DNA from: Candidatus Thorarchaeota archaeon
GTDB taxonomy: Archaea > Asgardarchaeota > Thorarchaeia > Thorarchaeales > Thorarchaeaceae
Assembly: GCA_019057475.1 (NCBI GenBank)
Contig: DXJO01000010.1
Coordinates: 160,001 to 224,000, forward strand
DNA length: 64,000 nucleotides
Reading direction: 5' to 3'
Each line of letters opens with the position of its first letter. The first letter of the stretch is position 1. Position numbers and translations under genes: made by a program. The notes beneath the pieces were generated by a model. It saw only the letters and a program-made list of their open reading frames with translations, was not told where the DNA came from and did no database searches. Positions 8,907-52,190 of this stretch are shown in pieces.

Positions 8907-11900
8907 TTGGTGGACCAAATGAAGCATGCTAAGATCCTATTCATTTTCATCATACTCACCCTGATTGCCATTACGGTCGCTAGCACCGCATACGGTTGGT
9001 TCCTCGGACAGAACATCTACCAGAGTACATACTCAGCCAAGGCCGGAGTCAACTTCTGGGACACTTGGACCTTGGAGAACAACATCTTCACGGCCTCATT
9101 GCTACTAACACTTCTGAGTGTCATAACCCTGCCGCAGCGATCAACATTTCTCTCTTTCATGTCAGCAATCTCGCAATCCGGGCCTGTAACCAAGCGCCTT
9201 GATATGACATCTGCGGTGATTTGGAGGCTGCTTGAGTTTGGCGGGTTTTTCGTATTCTACGTGTCGACAGGCGGCTATTCGTTGACCGGCCAGAATGTAG
9301 CATTTCTAATGATGTTGTTGGGCCATGGATCCATCTCAATCACATCCGCTGATGTAGGAACGCTCTTTTCACTACCCTTCGCGCCGGGAACCAGCTCTGA
9401 GTCGATAGTGAGTCTAGTTCCAGCGATGGAGGCATATCAGCTCTATCTTGGGCTCTTTGCTACTTTCTTGGTTCTCACCGGAGTCCGGCTTGTTCTGTCC
9501 GCCCTTACTAACATGATGAGCCACAATCGCGACATGTTTGTTGTGATTCCCAAGATTCTGCTAGCAGTTTCCATTGCGATCAGCCTTGAGATTCTGGGTG
9601 TACCCATGTGGACAGTAAACGCCGGAACATGGATGAGCTATATGGCCCTGATAGTATCGCTCTTCGCTAGCATAGCAGGCGCTGTGCTATTCTTGTTCCT
9701 CCGAGTTCATATGGGCGATGCACAGCAGCGCACAAGAAGCAAAATATCACAGCTGGAGGAAGATTTCGCCCGTTTTCAGGGAGAGTTGGTATCTCTTCGT
9801 AACGAATACGAGAGTGGCGACGTCACTCCCATTGATTATCGCAGGAGGGTCACCCTCCTAATGGAGGACCGAGCCCACATTGCCAAAGAGTTGGGTCATC
9901 TCAAGCTCGAGAGTCTAATTCCAATTAGGGACTCCCCTCGGAAATTCGGTTTCCTTGCAGTCATTCTTATTGCGATGGTCATTATCCTGCCTCTCACACA
10001 AGGTTTCTACTATGGTATTCAAATGGAAGGCGACAAGTACATCGATTGGAAATTCAACTACGAAACCCACAAGGAAATTACCATAACGAATTGGGCTGCA
10101 GGATTGGATGACATGGAATCGCTGACGCTAGACGATCTCACATTGAACGCAACGCCAGAGGGAGAGGTCGAGTTTCTCACGACAGTCCGACAATGGGATC
10201 AGGCTGCCAGCTTCCTACGTATGAAGAACCAGATTGGGACGAATTGGATGGAGCTGGCAGATTCTGACATCGTCTATCTCAGGGGGCATGAGTACTGGAT
10301 AGCACCCTTGACATTTGATTACAGCGCAACCAGGACTAGCTTCATCAATCAACACCTCATCTACACGCATACTGAGGGTCTTATCGTACTCGATGCTTAC
10401 AGTGGTGACGTAATCGAACAGGATTCCCTAGTCGCTCTATTGAACCGAAGCGAGTCCATCGACATCTACTACGGTGAGGGGCGCGGTTTCGGAGATGTCG
10501 TCTTCACAGATGTTTCCGGCTTTGAGGAGATAAACAATGCCACCTTTCAGGGAACGCCTGACTACAATCTTGCAGGTTTCGAGTCCACCTTCTACATGCT
10601 AGCCATGGGTCCGGATGCGTGGTCTTTCATGGGCCGAAACATGAGTATGTTGGTCCAGCGTGATGTACTCTCAAGAGTGCGGACCATTCTGTTGCAGGGG
10701 TTGACTGCTGATAGAGACCCCTACATTGTTGTTGACACAGCTGGGAATCTCCATTATGCGGTATCAATCTACATTGACTATCAACTTGCCACAGGTTATG
10801 CCAAGGAGAACTACATGCGGTTTCTGGGCGTTGTCCTTGTAGACATAGGCACAGGCGAGCTGGAGTTCTACAAGTCACCCACTGCAGAGGAATCATTCTT
10901 CATTGACAGAACATACATGGACTACTACGACTGGCAGGAAGCACCCCATTGGCTTCAGAGCCAGATGAAATGGCCAGAGGACCTTTATGAACGCCAGCTT
11001 GATGTGGCATATATCTATCACGTTGATGATGGTCTTGTCTGGCAAGCGGGTCAGGATTTCCACGAATCACCGGATAACTCTGACACACGATACATCATAA
11101 TGCGAATAGGTGGCGAAGACCGATTCGTCGCCATGCACAACAGTGAGTTTCTCGACTCTGCGGGACGGAACTTGGCTGGCATCTATGTGATGGGATGCGG
11201 TGACACTGACTTTGGCAAGCTGACTTTCTATAGTGCGGGAGAGCCAGGGTTCTCCACGCTGCTTGGTCCAACCGCGGCAGTTCAAGCGTTTGAAACGAAT
11301 GACGAGGTTCGGACTCAGCTGCAACTCTGGGGCAAGCACAGGTATGGCAATCGACTCCTCTATCATCTAGGCGGGGATCTATTCTTCGTAATCCCCGTGT
11401 TTCTCGAAGTGGAGTCATCCACAAACATTGTCATTGAGAAGTTGGGAGGGGTTGGCCTTGTGGACGCTGAGAGCGGTGAACAAGTAGAGTTGGGCAGTAG
11501 TGTAGTAGAGGCATACTACAAGATGTTTGGGCTTCTCAATCAGACCGCTGTGGAAGCAGGAGCCGTTGGCGTAGAGAGCGCAATCTTTGACCCCCTTACG
11601 ATAGATTCAGGCGCTTTCTCACAACTAGTATTGGGTCTTAGAAACAATGACAATGTGAGCAACGATCTATGGGTTGACATTGTGATTGTAGCCGGCAACT
11701 TCTCGGTTTCGTGGCATGGAAGCGAAGTCGCTCCAACAGTATATCCCTCGAATACCACATTCACATTGAGCATAGGTACAGTGGGTGCAGGTGATATCTA
11801 TGGCACCTCACCGTCGGTTACAGTCTATCTGCCTACCGGCTTGGTGCTTGGCCAGTATCTGGTTTATGTGATTCTGAGGACAGAGGAAGGAGTCGCTGAT

Positions 11901-44740: not shown

Positions 44741-46456
44741 TTACACTGAGAAGTTGAAGAAGAGAGTTGCGCCGTTCTTCATGTTCGGCACATATGCGCG
44801 ACGATAGGGTCCGAATAAATCATGAACACCTGAGTTGAGCATCCATTCAATCCAAGACCAGGACGCCTCTTGGCCAAGCTTGTTTTCAGCATATTGTCCA
44901 AACACCCAGCTCAAATAGCGCTCAACCTCAAGAATGGTAGCAAGGAGATCTTTCAGTTCATCGCCCTTTGCAGTCTTGCGCTGCCCTCTCAGGTCTTCCA
45001 GTGATACATTCAGCTCCTGATGACTCTCCAGTATCACACTCAGAAGAGACCGGATACTCTCGTTCATTTCATCATGTTTAGCCTTCTTTCTGAAGCGACC
45101 GATTGTCCCCAGCAAACGGAACATTTCTGGTTTGTGAAGCGGTGATAGGCCTTTTTCCTTCAATACTCCCGCAAGACTCTCGCTCCAAGGAGTATTGAAG
45201 TAGGCTCGCGGATACTTCAGAAATGCGGGGAAGGGCGCAGGCAGTGCTTTCGCAATTGGAATGACTTGTGCGTAATAGGCGGTTTCACCGCTTCCTCCCA
45301 CATGAGCGACGATGGGCAAGATCGTGTCGACAATCAATTGTCTGGAGTCAACTCTGGGTGATAGGTAACGTCCCACTTCACTAAGAAACGGTTCATCAGC
45401 CGATGTTTCAATCTCGACATTTTGACCGCACGATGGACATCTGCCTGTCAACACAGCCTCTGTGCCCTTCTCCTTGTACAATAGCTCGGTCCTACTCCTA
45501 TTGCATTCTTTCTCAGGGCACTCGTAGTAGAATGGCACATAGTTGAGCTTTCTAGATCCGGCGCCTGGTCTGAATCCGCTCTTCACAATGAGGTCTGTTG
45601 CTCTCTCGTGAGTCTTAAGGAAAACATCTCTTTGCTTCTTGGCCAATATGAATTCCATTCCCTCAACCATTAGATCTCGGAACACCTCATCTGATGCCGG
45701 GATAATCGGGATACCCAAGTTCCCCTCGATATTCAGAAGTCGACCAATTATTTTCTGAGCCCAATCGCCAAGGGTTCTGGAGTTGACAAATCCCCAACGT
45801 GTAATTGCCAGCGCCTGTTCGAGCCTTTCTTCAAAGAGTGTTCGCACAGGTTTGTCGAGGGGCTTGAGAAGGGGTCTATAGCTATGTCGAAGCTTCTCTT
45901 CAATCGCGTTGTACCATTCAATCTCAGGCAGAGGGAGAACGCTGACAGGCGAGTGCTTATAGCCTCTTGGTACAGGAATGCTCAGAAGATTGCCTTCGGG
46001 TCCCATGTTTGGAGTTCTGATATTGATCAGTTCTGATTGAACGATATCATAGTCTGCAACGAAGAAGACCGGAACGACATCGAGTCCTTGCTGAACACCA
46101 AAACTGCTGATTCGTTCTGCTGTGATTGCCTTGTTGAGAATGTATGCGGGGCCTCCCATTACTACACTCTGGTGAGCCGCTTCGACAACTCCATTACCGA
46201 GTCGTTTGATGTTCTCTTCCACACTGGGGGTCAAACATGCAAGCCCACGATTGGCCTTAATCAATGTCTTTCGGAGCAGTTTCATTCTCTCGTCGGTATG
46301 CCAGAGTCTATCCTTGTATTCCGCAAGTATCTTCGGAAACTCTGACACGATCTCTCCCATCGTGACGATTGGAGAACCATAAAGATCAGCTGCAAGACGC
46401 GACTGTGTGCCGCTCCAGATGAACTCCTGATAGATACTCGTCACACCGGGTTTCAA
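44741..46456 (-). CDS. bshC: BshC-like cysteine-adding enzyme of bacillithiol synthesis
   Basis: AHQ...GGPAYILNKAITA, VVPVFF..D.D, LSP.V..R, LP.VAHVGGSGETAYYAQ, PR; immediately downstream of bshA. Confidence 0.8.
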   Translation of the reverse strand: MKPGVTSIYQEFIWSGTQSRLAADLYGSPIVTMGEIVSEFPKILAEYKDRLWHTDERMKLLRKTLIKANRGLACLTPSVEENIKRLGNGVVEAAHQSVVMGGPAYILNKAITAERISSFGVQQGLDVVPVFFVADYDIVQSELINIRTPNMGPEGNLLSIPVPRGYKHSPVSVLPLPEIEWYNAIEEKLRHSYRPLLKPLDKPVRTLFEERLEQALAITRWGFVNSRTLGDWAQKIIGRLLNIEGNLGIPIIPASDEVFRDLMVEGMEFILAKKQRDVFLKTHERATDLIVKSGFRPGAGSRKLNYVPFYYECPEKECNRSRTELLYKEKGTEAVLTGRCPSCGQNVEIETSADEPFLSEVGRYLSPRVDSRQLIVDTILPIVAHVGGSGETAYYAQVIPIAKALPAPFPAFLKYPRAYFNTPWSESLAGVLKEKGLSPLHKPEMFRLLGTIGRFRKKAKHDEMNESIRSLLSVILESHQELNVSLEDLRGQRKTAKGDELKDLLATILEVERYLSWVFGQYAENKLGQEASWSWIEWMLNSGVHDLFGPYRRAYVPNMKNGATLFFNFSV

Positions 46457-46473
46457 GATACTCTCCTACCTTC

Positions 46474-47646
46474 CTATTTACTAATGACTTCCTCAAAGAT
46501 TTTTTCGTACTTGGGAACGATTGCCTTGGCTGCAAAGTGTTCCTCCACACGTTTTCTGCCGGCAGCAGACATCTGCTCCCTCATTTTCTCTTTGTCCAAG
46601 AGCTCGATGACTGCATCCGCGAACTCCTCGATTTCGAAGCCTTTGGTTACAATCCCATCCTTGCCGGGTCGAACCAGCTCTGGAATACCTCCTGCGGGAG
46701 TAGTGACCACTGGCAGACCGCACGACATAGACTCCAAGAGAACAAGTGGCATGCCTTCTAGCATCGAGTTGAGCAGGAATGCATCCGCAGAGCACATAAT
46801 CTCCAGCATGTTGCTCTTTATCCCCAGAAGATGAACATTATTGCAGAGGTCAAGTGCATCTATTCGTCTCTCAACCTCTATTCTTGTTGGACCATCGCCG
46901 GCAATCAGAAGACGGGTGTTCGGATGATGGTCGACAACTATCCGCATGATGTCAACCAGCTCGACGACTCGTTTCACCTTGCGGAAGTTTGACGCATGAA
47001 GCAGGACTATCTCTCCGGGATTAATCTCTTGGGCTTCTTCTGTACTCCTTACAGAAACGCAACCACTCTCAACTACCAGTTTGAAGTCGCTCTTTGGCGC
47101 GAATTTTTTCACGTCGATGAAGTTCGGTATCACATGTACTTCCCGTGTGATTCCCAATTCCCCGACTATCTTCTTCTTGAGGAACTCGGATACTGTTGTC
47201 ACGGCATCAGCGTTTTGAACGACATGTTCGACCACTGGCCTATAGGCAGGGTCCTGACCGAGTGAGTGCACATCTGAACCATGTAGAGTGACCACGTAGG
47301 GGATGCCACATATTTCCCGGGCCATGTAAGCTGACATTGCGTGTGGTATTGCGTAGTGTGAGTGAATAAGATCAAGCTTAGAATCCTTGGCCACCTTGAC
47401 TATCTTTGATGTCAATGCCATTGTATATGGTGGTCCCACATCCTTGAACAACGGGTAGTCAAAGCGGTCGACAAGGTCCACGTGGACCCCTCGCGTTTGC
47501 TCCCACATCAACGAGAACGGGCGCTCGTAGGTGATGAAGTGCATCACATGCCCTCGATGTGTCAAATGTTGTCCAAGGCGGGTTGCCAGATATCCGGACC
47601 CTCCCATCGAGGGATATAGATTCACACCAATGTTCAAGCGTGTCAC
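46474..47646 (-). CDS. bshA: BshA-like N-acetyl-alpha-D-glucosaminyl L-malate synthase (GT4)
   Basis: YPSMGGSG..AT.LG, HFITYERPF, YPLF..PPY..AL.SK, HSHYAIPHA, TLHGSD, HASNFRKVKRV. Confidence 0.88.
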   Translation of the reverse strand: MTRLNIGVNLYPSMGGSGYLATRLGQHLTHRGHVMHFITYERPFSLMWEQTRGVHVDLVDRFDYPLFKDVGPPYTMALTSKIVKVAKDSKLDLIHSHYAIPHAMSAYMAREICGIPYVVTLHGSDVHSLGQDPAYRPVVEHVVQNADAVTTVSEFLKKKIVGELGITREVHVIPNFIDVKKFAPKSDFKLVVESGCVSVRSTEEAQEINPGEIVLLHASNFRKVKRVVELVDIMRIVVDHHPNTRLLIAGDGPTRIEVERRIDALDLCNNVHLLGIKSNMLEIMCSADAFLLNSMLEGMPLVLLESMSCGLPVVTTPAGGIPELVRPGKDGIVTKGFEIEEFADAVIELLDKEKMREQMSAAGRKRVEEHFAAKAIVPKYEKIFEEVISK

Positions 47647-47750
47647 CTTTTCAGTAGGGTTGTCTTATGCCTGTGGGCCTCGTGGTTTGAGCGGTTCAAG
47701 ACTGACCAGCGGGCCAAAGCTTGATTAGACACCAACCTGAACACGAGGAT

Positions 47751-48419
47751 ATGAGTGATGCGGATGAGGCCTCCATGCTCGTTGTAGTTGCTCATCCTGA
47801 TGATGAGTGTCTTGGAGCGGGCGGCACAATCAGAAGACATGCGGAGCTCGGGGTTCCTGTGAGTGTTCTATGTCTCACTGGGAATGATGAGCGTAATGCC
47901 GAACTGAATAAGGCCTGCAAAACGCTTGGTGTGGCAGAGGTGCACACCAGTATGCGCGGCGACTTTGATGTTGACTGGTCACTCTCACATGAAATCGCTC
48001 AGACAATCCTCCGGACCCGACCCAGAATCATAATCACTCATTCTGTTGAGGACTACAACCGTAATCATAATCTCTGTGCGCAAATCGTAATGGAGGCAGT
48101 GGAATGGGCTTCCCACGTCACAATGTTTGATGATGCCCATAGGGTTGAGCGCATATACAACATGGAGATCAACTCCCTTCTTTCGCGTCCAAGCATCATG
48201 GTCGATGTTTCTGACTGCTACGATACTGCTGTACAAGCTCTTAAGCAGCACGAATCCCAGATGTCTAAGGCAAGCGGCTTTTACCCCAATTTATACGACG
48301 CCCGCACTCGCCTTCGTGGAGTGCAAGCTGCCTGTAACCGAGCTGAGGCCTTTGGTCTATCACCTTTAAGACATGCAGGCCCATTTTATCCTGTCAACAG
48401 CGTCCGAAGTTTGATCTAG
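47751..48419 (+). CDS. PIG-L family deacetylase, BshB-like
   Basis: VVAHPDDE.LGAGGTI, VDVS, ALKQHESQ, RG..A...AEAF; divergent from bshA. Confidence 0.8.
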   Translation: MSDADEASMLVVVAHPDDECLGAGGTIRRHAELGVPVSVLCLTGNDERNAELNKACKTLGVAEVHTSMRGDFDVDWSLSHEIAQTILRTRPRIIITHSVEDYNRNHNLCAQIVMEAVEWASHVTMFDDAHRVERIYNMEINSLLSRPSIMVDVSDCYDTAVQALKQHESQMSKASGFYPNLYDARTRLRGVQAACNRAEAFGLSPLRHAGPFYPVNSVRSLI

Positions 48420-48437: not shown

Positions 48438-48830
48438 CTACTGACCGGTAGCATCAGTTTTTCTTCTTCTAGCTGCAAGAAGGCTCTTCAACTCGCCCAT
48501 GAGCCCGCCTCCACCTCCAGTTGGTGGGGGTCGTGCTGAGGGCGCCTTGGCTATCGGGGCACTAGCCATATCGGGGGCAGCAGAAGCAGCAGCTGAGGCT
48601 GCTGACGGGGGCGCAACTCCGCGACTAGCTATTTGGTTGACCTTCGAATCGAGTCCGTCGAGTTTTGTTTCAAGGTCATATAGGCGCGTATCCAGGCCTC
48701 CTATCGCATCCACTAGCTTCTTTGTAATGGTGCTGACGACATCCCCTAGGGCTCGAAGCTTCTCTTCAGTGGGATCTTTGAGAGCCCATTCGAATTCTTC
48801 AAGGATGAAATCCTCGTCGTCACCAGACAT
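48438..48830 (-). CDS. Small coiled-coil + Ala/Pro linker + VASP-FAB/WASH-C-like motif protein
   Basis: Heptad LDTRLYDLETKLDGLDSKVNQI; RPPPT; GGGGGLMGELKSLLAARRRK. Confidence 0.7.
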   Translation of the reverse strand: MSGDDEDFILEEFEWALKDPTEEKLRALGDVVSTITKKLVDAIGGLDTRLYDLETKLDGLDSKVNQIASRGVAPPSAASAAASAAPDMASAPIAKAPSARPPPTGGGGGLMGELKSLLAARRRKTDATGQ

Positions 48831-48908: not shown

Positions 48909-50285
48909 TCATAAAGACTCCACAATTCTCTCAACAGTGCCTTTTGCATCCAACATGATTGACTCAGCAATCTCTTGGGTCGGAGCCTCGCAGGTCACCC
49001 TAATGACTGGCTCTGTCCCTGAAGGCCTGACAAGCACCCAGCCCTCTTCGAGGAAAACACCAAGACCGTCAACGGTGAGAATATCCACAGTCTTCTTCAT
49101 GGCCTCAGGCAGCGCCTTGGCCAGCTCTTTCATGGCGGCTTCCTTCTTGTTGTTCGGACACTCCACTTTGGCTTTAAGGAGCGGATAGACTGGAATCTCT
49201 GACATCAAGTCCCCGAAGCTGCGTTTCGTTTTTGCCATCAGTTCGAGTACTTTGCATGATGTAAGAAATGGATCGGGCGCTTCGTGAAACTCCGGATGAA
49301 TGAATACACCACAGGCTTCACCGCCAAAGATGGCATTGGTTTCTTGCATTTTGATAGCCACCTGAATATCCCCTACTGGCGTCCTAACCGTTTCTCCACC
49401 AGCCGCTTTGACGGTTTCATCCAAGACTCTGGAACTGTCCACTGTGGTAACGATAATCTTGTTCTTGGAGTTCTTGAGAATGTGGCGTGCAATGAGTGCA
49501 ATAACTCTATCACCCCTCACAACCTCCCCGGACTCGGTCACAAAGACAACGCGATCAGCGTCCCCATCGTGGGCTATGCCAAAGTCCGCGCCGGTCTTCC
49601 TAATCAAGCTCACGAGGTCTCCAAGAGACTCCTCATCGGGCTCAGATCTTCTTCCTGGGAAATGGCCATCTGTCTGCCCGTTGATTGTCACCATCTTGCA
49701 TCCAAGCTCTCTCATCAGATATGGTGTAAGGACACAGCCTGCGCCGTTTCCCGGGTCAACGATAATCTTGAATTCCCTTGATTTTATGAGGTCTGCATCA
49801 CAGACAGCGAGAATCTCATTGATATGACGGTCAACAGCGGTTTCCAACTTCCTGTCGGTTCCCAGCTGGTTCCATTCAGCAATCTGAAATTCCTTGGAGT
49901 TGTAGATCTCCTCAAGGCGCGCCTCCTCTGCCTGCGTGTAGCCCATGCTTGACCTCGACCAGAACTTCAAGCCAGTGTACTCGGGTGGATTGTGAGACGC
50001 TGTTACCATGACGCCGGTGTCATAGCCGTGGTACTTTGTCATGAATGCCAGAGTTGGAGTGGGGATGAGACCTGCTCTGACAACATTCACTCCTGTTGAC
50101 ATTATTCCTGCCGCAAGGGAGTCCTCCACCATGGGGCTTGTGGTTCGTGCATCGTGAGCGAGAAGAACCGTTCCGCTGCCCAAGTATGTTCCGAGAGCTT
50201 TGCCTAGTTCAATGGCCATGTCCAGCTTGAACTCAGTACCGTAGATCTTTCTCACACCAGTTGTTCCGAAGAGATTTCCTGTCAT
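48909..50285 (-). CDS. glmM: Phosphoglucosamine mutase / phosphomannomutase
   Basis: LFGTTGVR, VTASHNP, HDGDADR, GGEACG, VRPSGTEP. Confidence 0.9.
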   Translation of the reverse strand: MTGNLFGTTGVRKIYGTEFKLDMAIELGKALGTYLGSGTVLLAHDARTTSPMVEDSLAAGIMSTGVNVVRAGLIPTPTLAFMTKYHGYDTGVMVTASHNPPEYTGLKFWSRSSMGYTQAEEARLEEIYNSKEFQIAEWNQLGTDRKLETAVDRHINEILAVCDADLIKSREFKIIVDPGNGAGCVLTPYLMRELGCKMVTINGQTDGHFPGRRSEPDEESLGDLVSLIRKTGADFGIAHDGDADRVVFVTESGEVVRGDRVIALIARHILKNSKNKIIVTTVDSSRVLDETVKAAGGETVRTPVGDIQVAIKMQETNAIFGGEACGVFIHPEFHEAPDPFLTSCKVLELMAKTKRSFGDLMSEIPVYPLLKAKVECPNNKKEAAMKELAKALPEAMKKTVDILTVDGLGVFLEEGWVLVRPSGTEPVIRVTCEAPTQEIAESIMLDAKGTVERIVESL

Positions 50286-50386
50286 CCTTCTCACAGTCCG
50301 CTCGAATACAGTAATAGAAAAAAAGGCTACCGACTATGACTTATGCAGTGAATATGTAACTACTTATTCGAGGTTGACCACGAATG

Positions 50387-51632: not shown

Positions 51633-52190
51633 ATGAGCAGCAGTACGTATGATTATCTGTTCAAGGTTGTTGTTCTGGGAGAAGGCGCCGTAGGAAAAAC
51701 AGCGATCGTAACGCGCTTCTCTCACGGTTTCTTCCGCACTGACTACAAGACGACAATCGGGTCTCAATTCGCCGTCAAGAACATCACCGTGACTAGGACT
51801 GATGGCTCAAAGGTTACGGTGAAGCTGCAAATTTGGGACGTGGCAGGTCAATCACGGTTCCAGATTCTGAGACCAATGTACTATCGCGGTTCAAGCGGCG
51901 GGATTCTTGTCTACGATGTGACTCGAAGAAGGACGTTCATGGTCCTTCAGGAATGGATGGATGAGCTTACAAAGGCTATCAACAAGGAGATTCCTTTAAT
52001 CCTCGTTGCCAATAAGACGGACCTGCCAGACCGCGTGGTGCAGCCCGCTGAGGGGCGCAAGTTCGCTGATGAGCACAATATGCCCTACCTTGAATCGTCA
52101 GCTAAGACGGGCGAGGGCATTGTTGATATATTCGCAAGGCTGGGCAAAACATTGGCACGGACTCGCGAAGAGCACTCAAGTCTGCAGTGA
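51633..52190 (+). CDS. Rab-like small GTPase
   Basis: YDYLFKVVVLGEGAVGKT, TIG, WDVAGQ, YYRG, NKTD, ESSAK; no C-terminal Cys. Confidence 0.95.
   Translation: MSSSTYDYLFKVVVLGEGAVGKTAIVTRFSHGFFRTDYKTTIGSQFAVKNITVTRTDGSKVTVKLQIWDVAGQSRFQILRPMYYRGSSGGILVYDVTRRRTFMVLQEWMDELTKAINKEIPLILVANKTDLPDRVVQPAEGRKFADEHNMPYLESSAKTGEGIVDIFARLGKTLARTREEHSSLQ

What the first reader, a model, noticed from the sequence alone, without database searches (positions are those of the whole stretch)
48438..48830. Candidate archaeal actin regulator: coiled coil + polyproline + VASP-FAB/WASH-C-like helix
Seen: acidic N-terminus, heptad coiled coil, Ala/Pro linker with PPP, and C-terminal GGGGGLMGELKSLLAARRRK. Known (recalled sequences, need confirming): the Ena/VASP F-actin-binding segment is GGGGLMEEMNAMLARRRK, and the WASH central helix is similar (GGDLMSDLFNKLVMRRK). 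Asgard archaea encode actin and profilin. The coiled coil is reminiscent of CCDC53/BRK1-type oligomerisation helices. Inference: a minimal oligomeric actin-binding, bundling or elongation factor, and potentially an unrecognised eukaryotic-signature protein.
Basis: partly seen in the sequence, partly recalled or inferred. Interest (0 to 1): 0.78.

Follow-up and report, generated by a model that had tools for sequence, protein, structure and literature searches.

The report
Asgard coiled-coil tether, VASP-like tail
This real 130-residue Thorarchaeota protein belongs to an undescribed family found across Asgard archaea (a coiled-coil stalk, a floppy arm and a conserved end helix resembling the filament-binding motif of animal VASP), so it is a testable but unproven candidate for a missing archaeal actin tether or bundler.

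Summary
It belongs to an unnamed, mostly single-copy family with a profile match in 131 of 151 sampled Asgard genomes. Conserved parts are an N-terminal helix, a heptad coiled coil and a C-terminal helix with a basic end. The PPP and poly-Gly are not conserved in Thorarchaeota.

Human VASP's F-actin-binding motif, taken from a paper, scores 19.2 bits on a tail profile built without Thorarchaeota (about 2e-7 per window). That is more than chance, but does not show homology. There is no EVH1 domain, G-actin-binding motif or C-terminal tetramer coil, and CCDC53 kinship failed its test.

The module also ends Arf/Rag-like GTPases (54 of 61 Lokiarchaeia), and there the gene follows a BAR-like gene. 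Against actin binding: the Ca. Lokiarchaeum ossiferum homologue is expressed but is not among proteins enriched in the published Lokiactin co-IP. The actin-complex prediction was not run.

Verdict: an oligomeric docking tether. Actin is the likeliest partner (about 45%), a membrane or GTPase partner next. I found no published description; this scan flagged the family before on other genomes.

The parts
48438..48830 (-). Whole gene, 130 aa (P0001), stand-alone member of an unnamed pan-Asgard family
48768..48830 (-). Residues 1-21: acidic, aromatic N-terminal helix and Asp-Pro hinge; F13 W15 A16 L17 D19 P20 invariant in Thorarchaeota
   Evidence: alignment A1; helix 3-18 in model
48621..48767 (-). 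Residues 22-70: long heptad coiled coil (d: L25 V32 L39 L46 L53 L60 I67; a: I43 L50 L57 V64); oligomerisation stalk, probably trimeric (inferred)
   Evidence: best PDB sequence hits are mostly trimeric coiled coils
48504..48620 (-). Residues 71-109: disordered Ala/Pro linker ending in PPP and Gly5; variable in length and sequence, strongly Pro-rich in Lokiarchaeia
   Evidence: pLDDT about 50
48522..48530 (-). PPP (101-103), possible weak profilin site; not conserved in Thorarchaeota
48459..48503 (-). Residues 110-124: conserved amphipathic docking helix with basic end (E113, L114, K115 nearly invariant across Asgard); VASP-FAB-like
48909..50294 (-). Upstream neighbour, archaeal phosphoglucosamine mutase (GlmM); syntenic in 30 of 30 Thorarchaeota loci, no functional link inferred
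47721..48419 (+). Convergent downstream neighbour, BshB-like PIG-L deacetylase; syntenic in 30 of 30 Thorarchaeota loci, no functional link inferred

Best explanation
A small multivalent docking adaptor for the actin cytoskeleton. The N-terminal helix and long coil assemble into a parallel oligomer, probably a trimer (coil shown by sequence and model; oligomer state inferred). Each chain carries a floppy arm of about 40 residues (disorder predicted) that ends in a conserved amphipathic helix with a basic end (shown). The inferred step is that this helix binds actin: the hydrophobic face at or near the barbed-end groove, the Arg/Lys cluster on the acidic filament surface. Several weak sites per oligomer would tether or bundle filaments, or hold their ends near the membrane. 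In lineages with long Pro tracts the arm may also recruit profilin-actin. The same module on Arf/Rag-like GTPases would let a switch protein dock on the same target or join the oligomer. It would work like a VASP reduced to its FAB motif plus an oligomeriser, without being a VASP.
For: (1) Tail conservation far exceeds that of the linker across Asgard lineages. (2) The published human VASP FAB motif scores 19.2 bits on a 14-column tail profile without Thorarchaeota, above all of about 870,000 background windows (maximum 15.9). That is about 2e-7 per window, or about 2 expected per human proteome, and about 19 with helix-rich composition. (3) Near-universal, mostly single-copy distribution in Asgard genomes, like actin (131/151 against 139/151). 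(4) The module is fused to Arf/Rag-like GTPases in 54 of 61 Lokiarchaeia of one family, with the tail retained. (5) In that family the gene directly follows a BAR-like gene. BAR proteins and an Arf were seen in the Lokiactin co-IP (PMC13716822). (6) Archaeal precedent: arcadin-2 uses a conserved C-terminal helix behind an unstructured linker to bind crenactin's hydrophobic groove (PMC5173319). (7) A tail copy lies in a protein encoded directly behind a two-domain gelsolin in one genome.
Against: The Ca. L. ossiferum homologue (inferred tag GNAMCCOK_02219) is in all 16 proteome samples at log2 18.5, above two proteins that were enriched (2DGel2 17.3, profilin-2 17.4). Yet it is absent from the stored rows of the Lokiactin co-IP table, which run from log2 ratio +10 to -1.06. 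There is no G-actin-binding or LKKT-type motif. PPP and GGGG are not conserved. Dictyostelium VASP's FAB differs substantially from the mammalian one (PMC3034019), so the mammalian sequence need not be ancestral. Sharing a range with actin says little, since both are pan-Asgard, and clear members were not found in some actin-bearing families (f8, f9).
Confidence: 0.45

Rival explanations
1. The same tether, but the tail docks on a non-actin protein of membrane remodelling or small-GTPase signalling (a BAR-like scaffold, a roadblock/longin regulator or an ESCRT accessory). The VASP likeness then reflects a common peptide-in-groove helix.
For: The only recurrent fusion partners found are Arf/Rag-like GTPases and a HEAT plus winged-helix protein. 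The conserved neighbour in Lokiarchaeia is BAR-like. The homologue is not enriched in the Lokiactin co-IP.
Against: The BAR-like neighbour was found only in Lokiarchaeia (0 of 26 Thorarchaeota) and the GTPase fusion was not found in this genome, while the tail is pan-Asgard, so the partner must be more widespread than either. No member has an ESCRT-III MIM1 pattern (0 of 35).
Confidence: 0.3
2. The tail is a membrane-targeting or polyanion-binding helix (like the MinD or FtsA membrane-targeting sequences, own knowledge), and the protein is an oligomeric membrane tether.
For: A C-terminal amphipathic helix with net positive charge in most members; fusion to Arf-type GTPases, which act on membranes.
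Against: Near-invariant E-L-K positions (35, 38 and 36 of 38) suggest a stereospecific protein partner. The hydrophobic moment is modest (0.28), and Thorarchaeota tails lack aromatic residues.
Confidence: 0.1
3. A true evolutionary forerunner of the Ena/VASP FAB motif or the WASP/WASH/WAVE central helix, with the coil ancestral to the BRK1/CCDC53/HSBP1 coils. This is a stronger form of the best explanation.
For: FAB score; 25 of 38 tails have the hydrophobic-x3-L-x3-hydrophobic-x2-R/K spacing of nucleation-promoting-factor central helices (pattern from own knowledge; count); coil, then Pro arm, then helix is the order seen in WAVE/WASH.
Against: The CCDC53 profile does not hit the family. HSBP1 hits reach only E 0.05-0.2, in 3 of 5 genomes, among many unrelated coils. 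No eukaryotic protein came up in sequence, atlas or PDB searches. A 14-residue motif cannot show descent.
Confidence: 0.08

Closest known systems
Ena/VASP EVH2 region (GAB 223-239, FAB 259-278, tetramerising coil 343-380 in human VASP; PMC10340426, PMC3034019)
   Same: Tail helix 12/20 identical to human FAB and significant at profile level; oligomerising coil and Pro-containing arm in one chain.
   Different: No EVH1 domain and no GAB; the coil is N-terminal and a canonical heptad, not a C-terminal right-handed tetramer; Pro tract short and variable in Thorarchaeota; binding untested.
WASP/WAVE/WASH nucleation-promoting factors (N-terminal coil, Pro-rich region, WH2, central helix, acidic tail; own knowledge)
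   Same: Order of coil, Pro arm and amphipathic helix ending in Arg; helix spacing in 25 of 38 tails.
   Different: No WH2/LKKT motif, no conserved acidic Trp motif (a Trp with acidic residues follows only in Hodarchaeales); this genome has one actin and no second actin-family match.
Arcadin-2 of Pyrobaculum calidifontis (PMC5173319)
   Same: Archaeal protein with a small conserved C-terminal helix behind a non-conserved linker that binds an actin homologue.
   Different: Arcadin-2 lies in the crenactin gene cluster and sequesters monomers at 31 nM. This gene is not linked to actin, and sequence kinship was not tested.
C-terminal extension of Lokiarchaeia Arf/RagA-like GTPases (about 400-500 aa)
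   Same: Same coil, linker and tail module (A2 profile up to 37 bits over positions 22-131).
   Different: Here the module stands alone; the GTPase fusion was not found in this genome. The extension is itself uncharacterised.
HSBP1 / BRK1 / CCDC53 small trimeric coils
   Same: Short helix followed by a long heptad coil of similar size.
   Different: No significant profile match.

Membership tests
Ena/VASP | N-terminal EVH1 domain | tested here: not met
   130 aa, all helical or disordered; no Pfam hit in any of 35 members
Ena/VASP | Central proline-rich region binding profilin | tested here: inconclusive
   PPP here; run of 3 or more in 16/36 Thorarchaeota; runs up to 5 and 12-18% Pro in Lokiarchaeia; binding not tested
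Ena/VASP | WH2-like G-actin-binding (GAB) motif | tested here: not met
   GAB scores negative on tail profiles; 0/35 have an LKKT-type motif
Ena/VASP | FAB motif (sequence) | tested here: met
   12/20 identity; 19.2 bits on non-Thorarchaeota profile, about 2e-7 per window
Ena/VASP | C-terminal right-handed tetramerisation coil | tested here: not met
   The coil is N-terminal with a heptad repeat; the chain ends 6 residues after the basic cluster
Ena/VASP | Binds, bundles or elongates actin | not testable with these tools
   Complex prediction was not folded; homologue not among enriched co-IP rows
WASP/WAVE/WASH | WH2 (V) motif before the central helix | tested here: not met
WASP/WAVE/WASH | Central amphipathic helix with terminal Arg | tested here: inconclusive
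   Spacing present in 25/38 tails, but the reference pattern is from memory
WASP/WAVE/WASH | Acidic tail with Trp, and an Arp2/3 target | tested here: not met
   No Trp after the helix in P0001; single actin-family match in the genome
CCDC53 (WASHC3) | Pfam PF10152 coil | tested here: not met
   No hit on the family gene in 5 genomes at E up to 1
HSBP1 | Pfam PF06825 coil | tested here: inconclusive
   E 0.05-0.2 in 3 of 5 genomes, below cut-off; 11 control genomes ring too
BRK1/HSPC300 | Sequence or profile match of the coil | not tested
ESCRT-III MIM1 carriers | (D/E)xxLxxRLxxL(K/R) C-terminal motif (own knowledge) | tested here: not met
   0 of 35
Arcadin-2 | Encoded in the actin gene cluster | tested here: not met
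   Actin is on contig C27, this gene on C42; no actin among neighbours in about 78 loci

The most novel reading that the evidence does not exclude
The family is the missing pan-Asgard actin elongation or bundling factor. Its tail binds actin as the VASP FAB motif or the NPF central helix does. It is coupled to membranes and signalling through GTPase-fused copies and BAR-like partners, copied by mobile elements, and is the archaeal source of that eukaryotic motif.
Probability: 0.15. Interest if true: 0.9.

Novelty: new variant of a known kind. Interest (0 to 1): 0.62.

Why it matters
Asgard archaea crawl with actin-filled protrusions, yet the known regulators are mainly profilins and gelsolins. 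Radler et al. 2026 (PMC13716822) contrast this with eukaryotes, which use formins and Ena/VASP. A small, expressed, near-universal Asgard protein with a multivalent FAB-like helix is a concrete and cheap candidate for the missing tether, bundler or elongator. It has no globular fold, so fold-based searches for eukaryotic signature proteins would miss it. If the partner is not actin, identifying it still reveals a conserved Asgard docking hub shared with small GTPases.

Tried and rejected
- Complex prediction of this genome's actin with the tail: the tool did not fold the pair because one chain looks eukaryotic.
- Pfam, NCBIfam, PDB sequence, Foldseek and ESM Atlas searches gave no named family, only generic coils.
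- Tail-only searches of longer proteins and the PDB gave nothing significant; the best natural hit was twinfilin-2 at E 0.25.
- Viral contigs gave no homologue.
- CCDC53 kinship rejected; HSBP1 at background level.
- The Arf enriched in the Lokiactin co-IP (38.1 kDa) is not a tail fusion: L. ossiferum has one tail match only.
- The BAR-like neighbour is not the paper's Bar1 or Bar2.
- A role in bacillithiol or GlmM metabolism rejected: those neighbours are confined to Thorarchaeia, apart from one GlmM-like gene near L109.
- One search used the wrong end of the GTPase by my slip and is void.
- Absence outside Asgard was not tested directly; all named hits are Asgard.

Full report
Observation. 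The ORF at 48438-48830 (-) encodes 130 residues. It has 143 close homologues, named as hypothetical proteins of Ca. Thorarchaeota; the window is part of a 96% complete genome. AlphaFold on a 35-sequence alignment gives helix 3-18, helix 22-70, a disordered stretch 71-109 and helix 110-128. The long helix has a clean heptad, with 11 of 14 a/d positions L/I/V, and its best PDB sequence hits are mostly trimeric coiled coils. No Pfam, NCBIfam, Foldseek or atlas family names it.

Family. A Thorarchaeota profile hit 285 of 400 Asgard genomes. A wider profile hit 131 of 151, mostly once, with about 94 strong full-length matches. I inspected members from Lokiarchaeia, Hodarchaeales, Ca. Borrarchaeum and several unnamed families; they keep the coil, the Pro-rich arm and the tail. 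Hits in families f8 and f9 were weak or absent, and the f8 hit I read is a different coil protein, so the family may be lost or diverged there. The pan-Asgard tail consensus is P-x-S-x-R-x-A-[LI]-M-x-E-L-K-x-L-[FL]-x-[KR]-R-[RK], with E, L and K in 35, 38 and 36 of 38 rows. In Thorarchaeota the front of this consensus is replaced by Gly-rich sequence. GGGG occurs in 6 of 36 homologues and a Pro run of three or more in 16 of 36, so these two features of this copy are incidental.

Is the VASP likeness more than chance? This copy was picked for its likeness, so I scored FAB on a 14-column profile built without Thorarchaeota and without the Gly run. It scores 19.2 bits, above all of about 870,000 background windows (maximum 15.9); the GAB motif scores negative. 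The exact tail probability is about 2e-7 per window, or about 2 chance hits per human proteome, and about 19 with helix-rich composition. The likeness is therefore notable, but 14 residues cannot separate descent from convergence, and Dictyostelium FAB differs substantially from the mammalian one (PMC3034019). CCDC53 does not match the coil, and HSBP1 matches only at background level.

Context. In Thorarchaeota the gene always lies between glmM and a bshB-like gene (30 of 30 loci); other lineages have other neighbours, so I infer no metabolic role. Three links point to membrane or cytoskeleton control. First, the whole module forms the C-terminus of an Arf/Rag-like GTPase found in 54 of 61 genomes of the main Lokiarchaeia family, and a second GTPase group carries the same tail. 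Second, in 24 of 25 sampled genomes of that family a 205-residue helical gene is present, and where both genes are on one contig it lies directly upstream. Its model (pLDDT 92) best matches BAR domains: arfaptin Z 13.2, rmsd 4.9, 186 aligned; SNX1 Z 12.0. Such Z values are common for helical bundles, so this is a likely, not certain, BAR. It was not found in Thorarchaeota. Third, one complete Lokiarchaeia genome has a tail copy inside a 705-residue protein encoded right behind a two-domain gelsolin; this is not conserved in three other genomes. This genome has one actin, gelsolins and a weak profilin match.

Experimental data. The Ca. L. ossiferum homologue directly follows NEF87_002200, whose mass matches GNAMCCOK_02218, so the homologue is most likely GNAMCCOK_02219. 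In the proteome table of Radler et al. (bioRxiv 10.1101/2025.11.30.690169) it is seen in 16 of 16 samples at mean log2 18.5, more than 2DGel2 or profilin-2, both of which were enriched with Lokiactin. It is absent from the stored co-IP rows, which reach down to log2 ratio -1.06, with 841 rows cut. So it is expressed but not enriched. The weight is moderate: the IP used cleared supernatant of stationary-phase cells, which may lose filament- or membrane-bound factors, and profilin-1 was not significantly enriched either. The actin-complex prediction was not run by the tool.

Mechanism. Shown: a coil, a flexible arm and a strongly conserved docking helix, reused as a portable module. Inferred: parallel oligomerisation, probably as a trimer, presents several helices, which bind one widely conserved Asgard partner. 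Actin is the best single guess (0.45), from the FAB score, the arcadin-2 precedent (PMC5173319) and the GTPase and BAR context. With no G-actin site, tethering or bundling is more likely than VASP-type processive elongation, except perhaps through profilin in Pro-rich lineages. A non-actin partner in membrane remodelling (0.30), direct membrane binding (0.10) and true ancestry of the eukaryotic motif (0.08) are the rivals.

Known or new. It is not an Ena/VASP, WASP-family or CCDC53 member by the tests above; it may work like the FAB-plus-oligomer part of VASP. The main texts of surveys of Asgard eukaryotic signature proteins (PMC12962969, PMC13734099, PMC10307638) do not mention VASP or WASH homologues, and the actin-evolution review PMC12050087 lists only profilins and gelsolin for Asgard. 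Subscription papers and most supplements were not searchable. This scan had flagged the family on other genomes, with split opinions on the motif. My tests side with 'better than chance', confirm the co-IP absence and the GTPase fusion, and do not reproduce the gelsolin or profilin fusions. Interest 0.62.

Noticed in passing
L070:10605-11021 (-), L070:9807-10016 (-); also G000:C43:12973-13251 and 9607-9693: A putative mobile element in this genome (integrase and AEP primase) carries a small RHH-like protein ending in a helix that matches the family tail (E 0.0005-0.016 per genome). There are five related pieces here and one good homologue in one other of 85 Thorarchaeota. The layout recalls ParR (RHH plus actin-groove helix); possibly mimicry, possibly chance.
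   Followed up: partly
L145:1489-2109 (-) = UYP46261.1 = GNAMCCOK_02568; L038:2206-2820 (+): Unannotated BAR-like 206-aa Lokiarchaeia protein among the 50 most intense in the L. ossiferum proteome (log2 22.0, actin 21.7), co-IP ratio 0.71 (adjusted P 0.053); not one of the paper's two BAR proteins.
   Followed up: partly
L116:2989-4215 (-), L122:1498-2691 (-), L167:1728-3164 (-): Two groups of Lokiarchaeia Arf/RagA-like GTPases with an N-terminal extension and this family's module or tail at the C-terminus; three tandem copies in one genome (L148).
   Followed up: partly
window 44741-48419: bshC-like, bshA and divergent bshB-like genes beside glmM: a bacillithiol-type cluster in an archaeon (BshA above cut-off; BshB and BshC below).
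   Followed up: partly
L053:1207-1785 (-), L111:2986-3591 (-): Hodarchaeales members end in Trp plus acidic residues right after the helix, reminiscent of a compressed central-acidic tail.
   Followed up: no
L041:85-973, L047:2809-3599; L061:1492-2721 (-): Tandem duplicates of the family gene in one Lokiarchaeia-related family, and a HEAT plus winged-helix protein ending in the full module.
   Followed up: no
L071:6344-6970 (+) (G000:C31:20343-20969): Another coil plus Pro/Glu-linker protein with a different C-terminal helical domain; weak match to the family profile, common across Asgard, probably the source of weak hits.
   Followed up: no
window 51633-52190 (+): Rab-like small GTPase 2.8 kb from the gene (Pfam Ras E 1e-49).
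   Followed up: no
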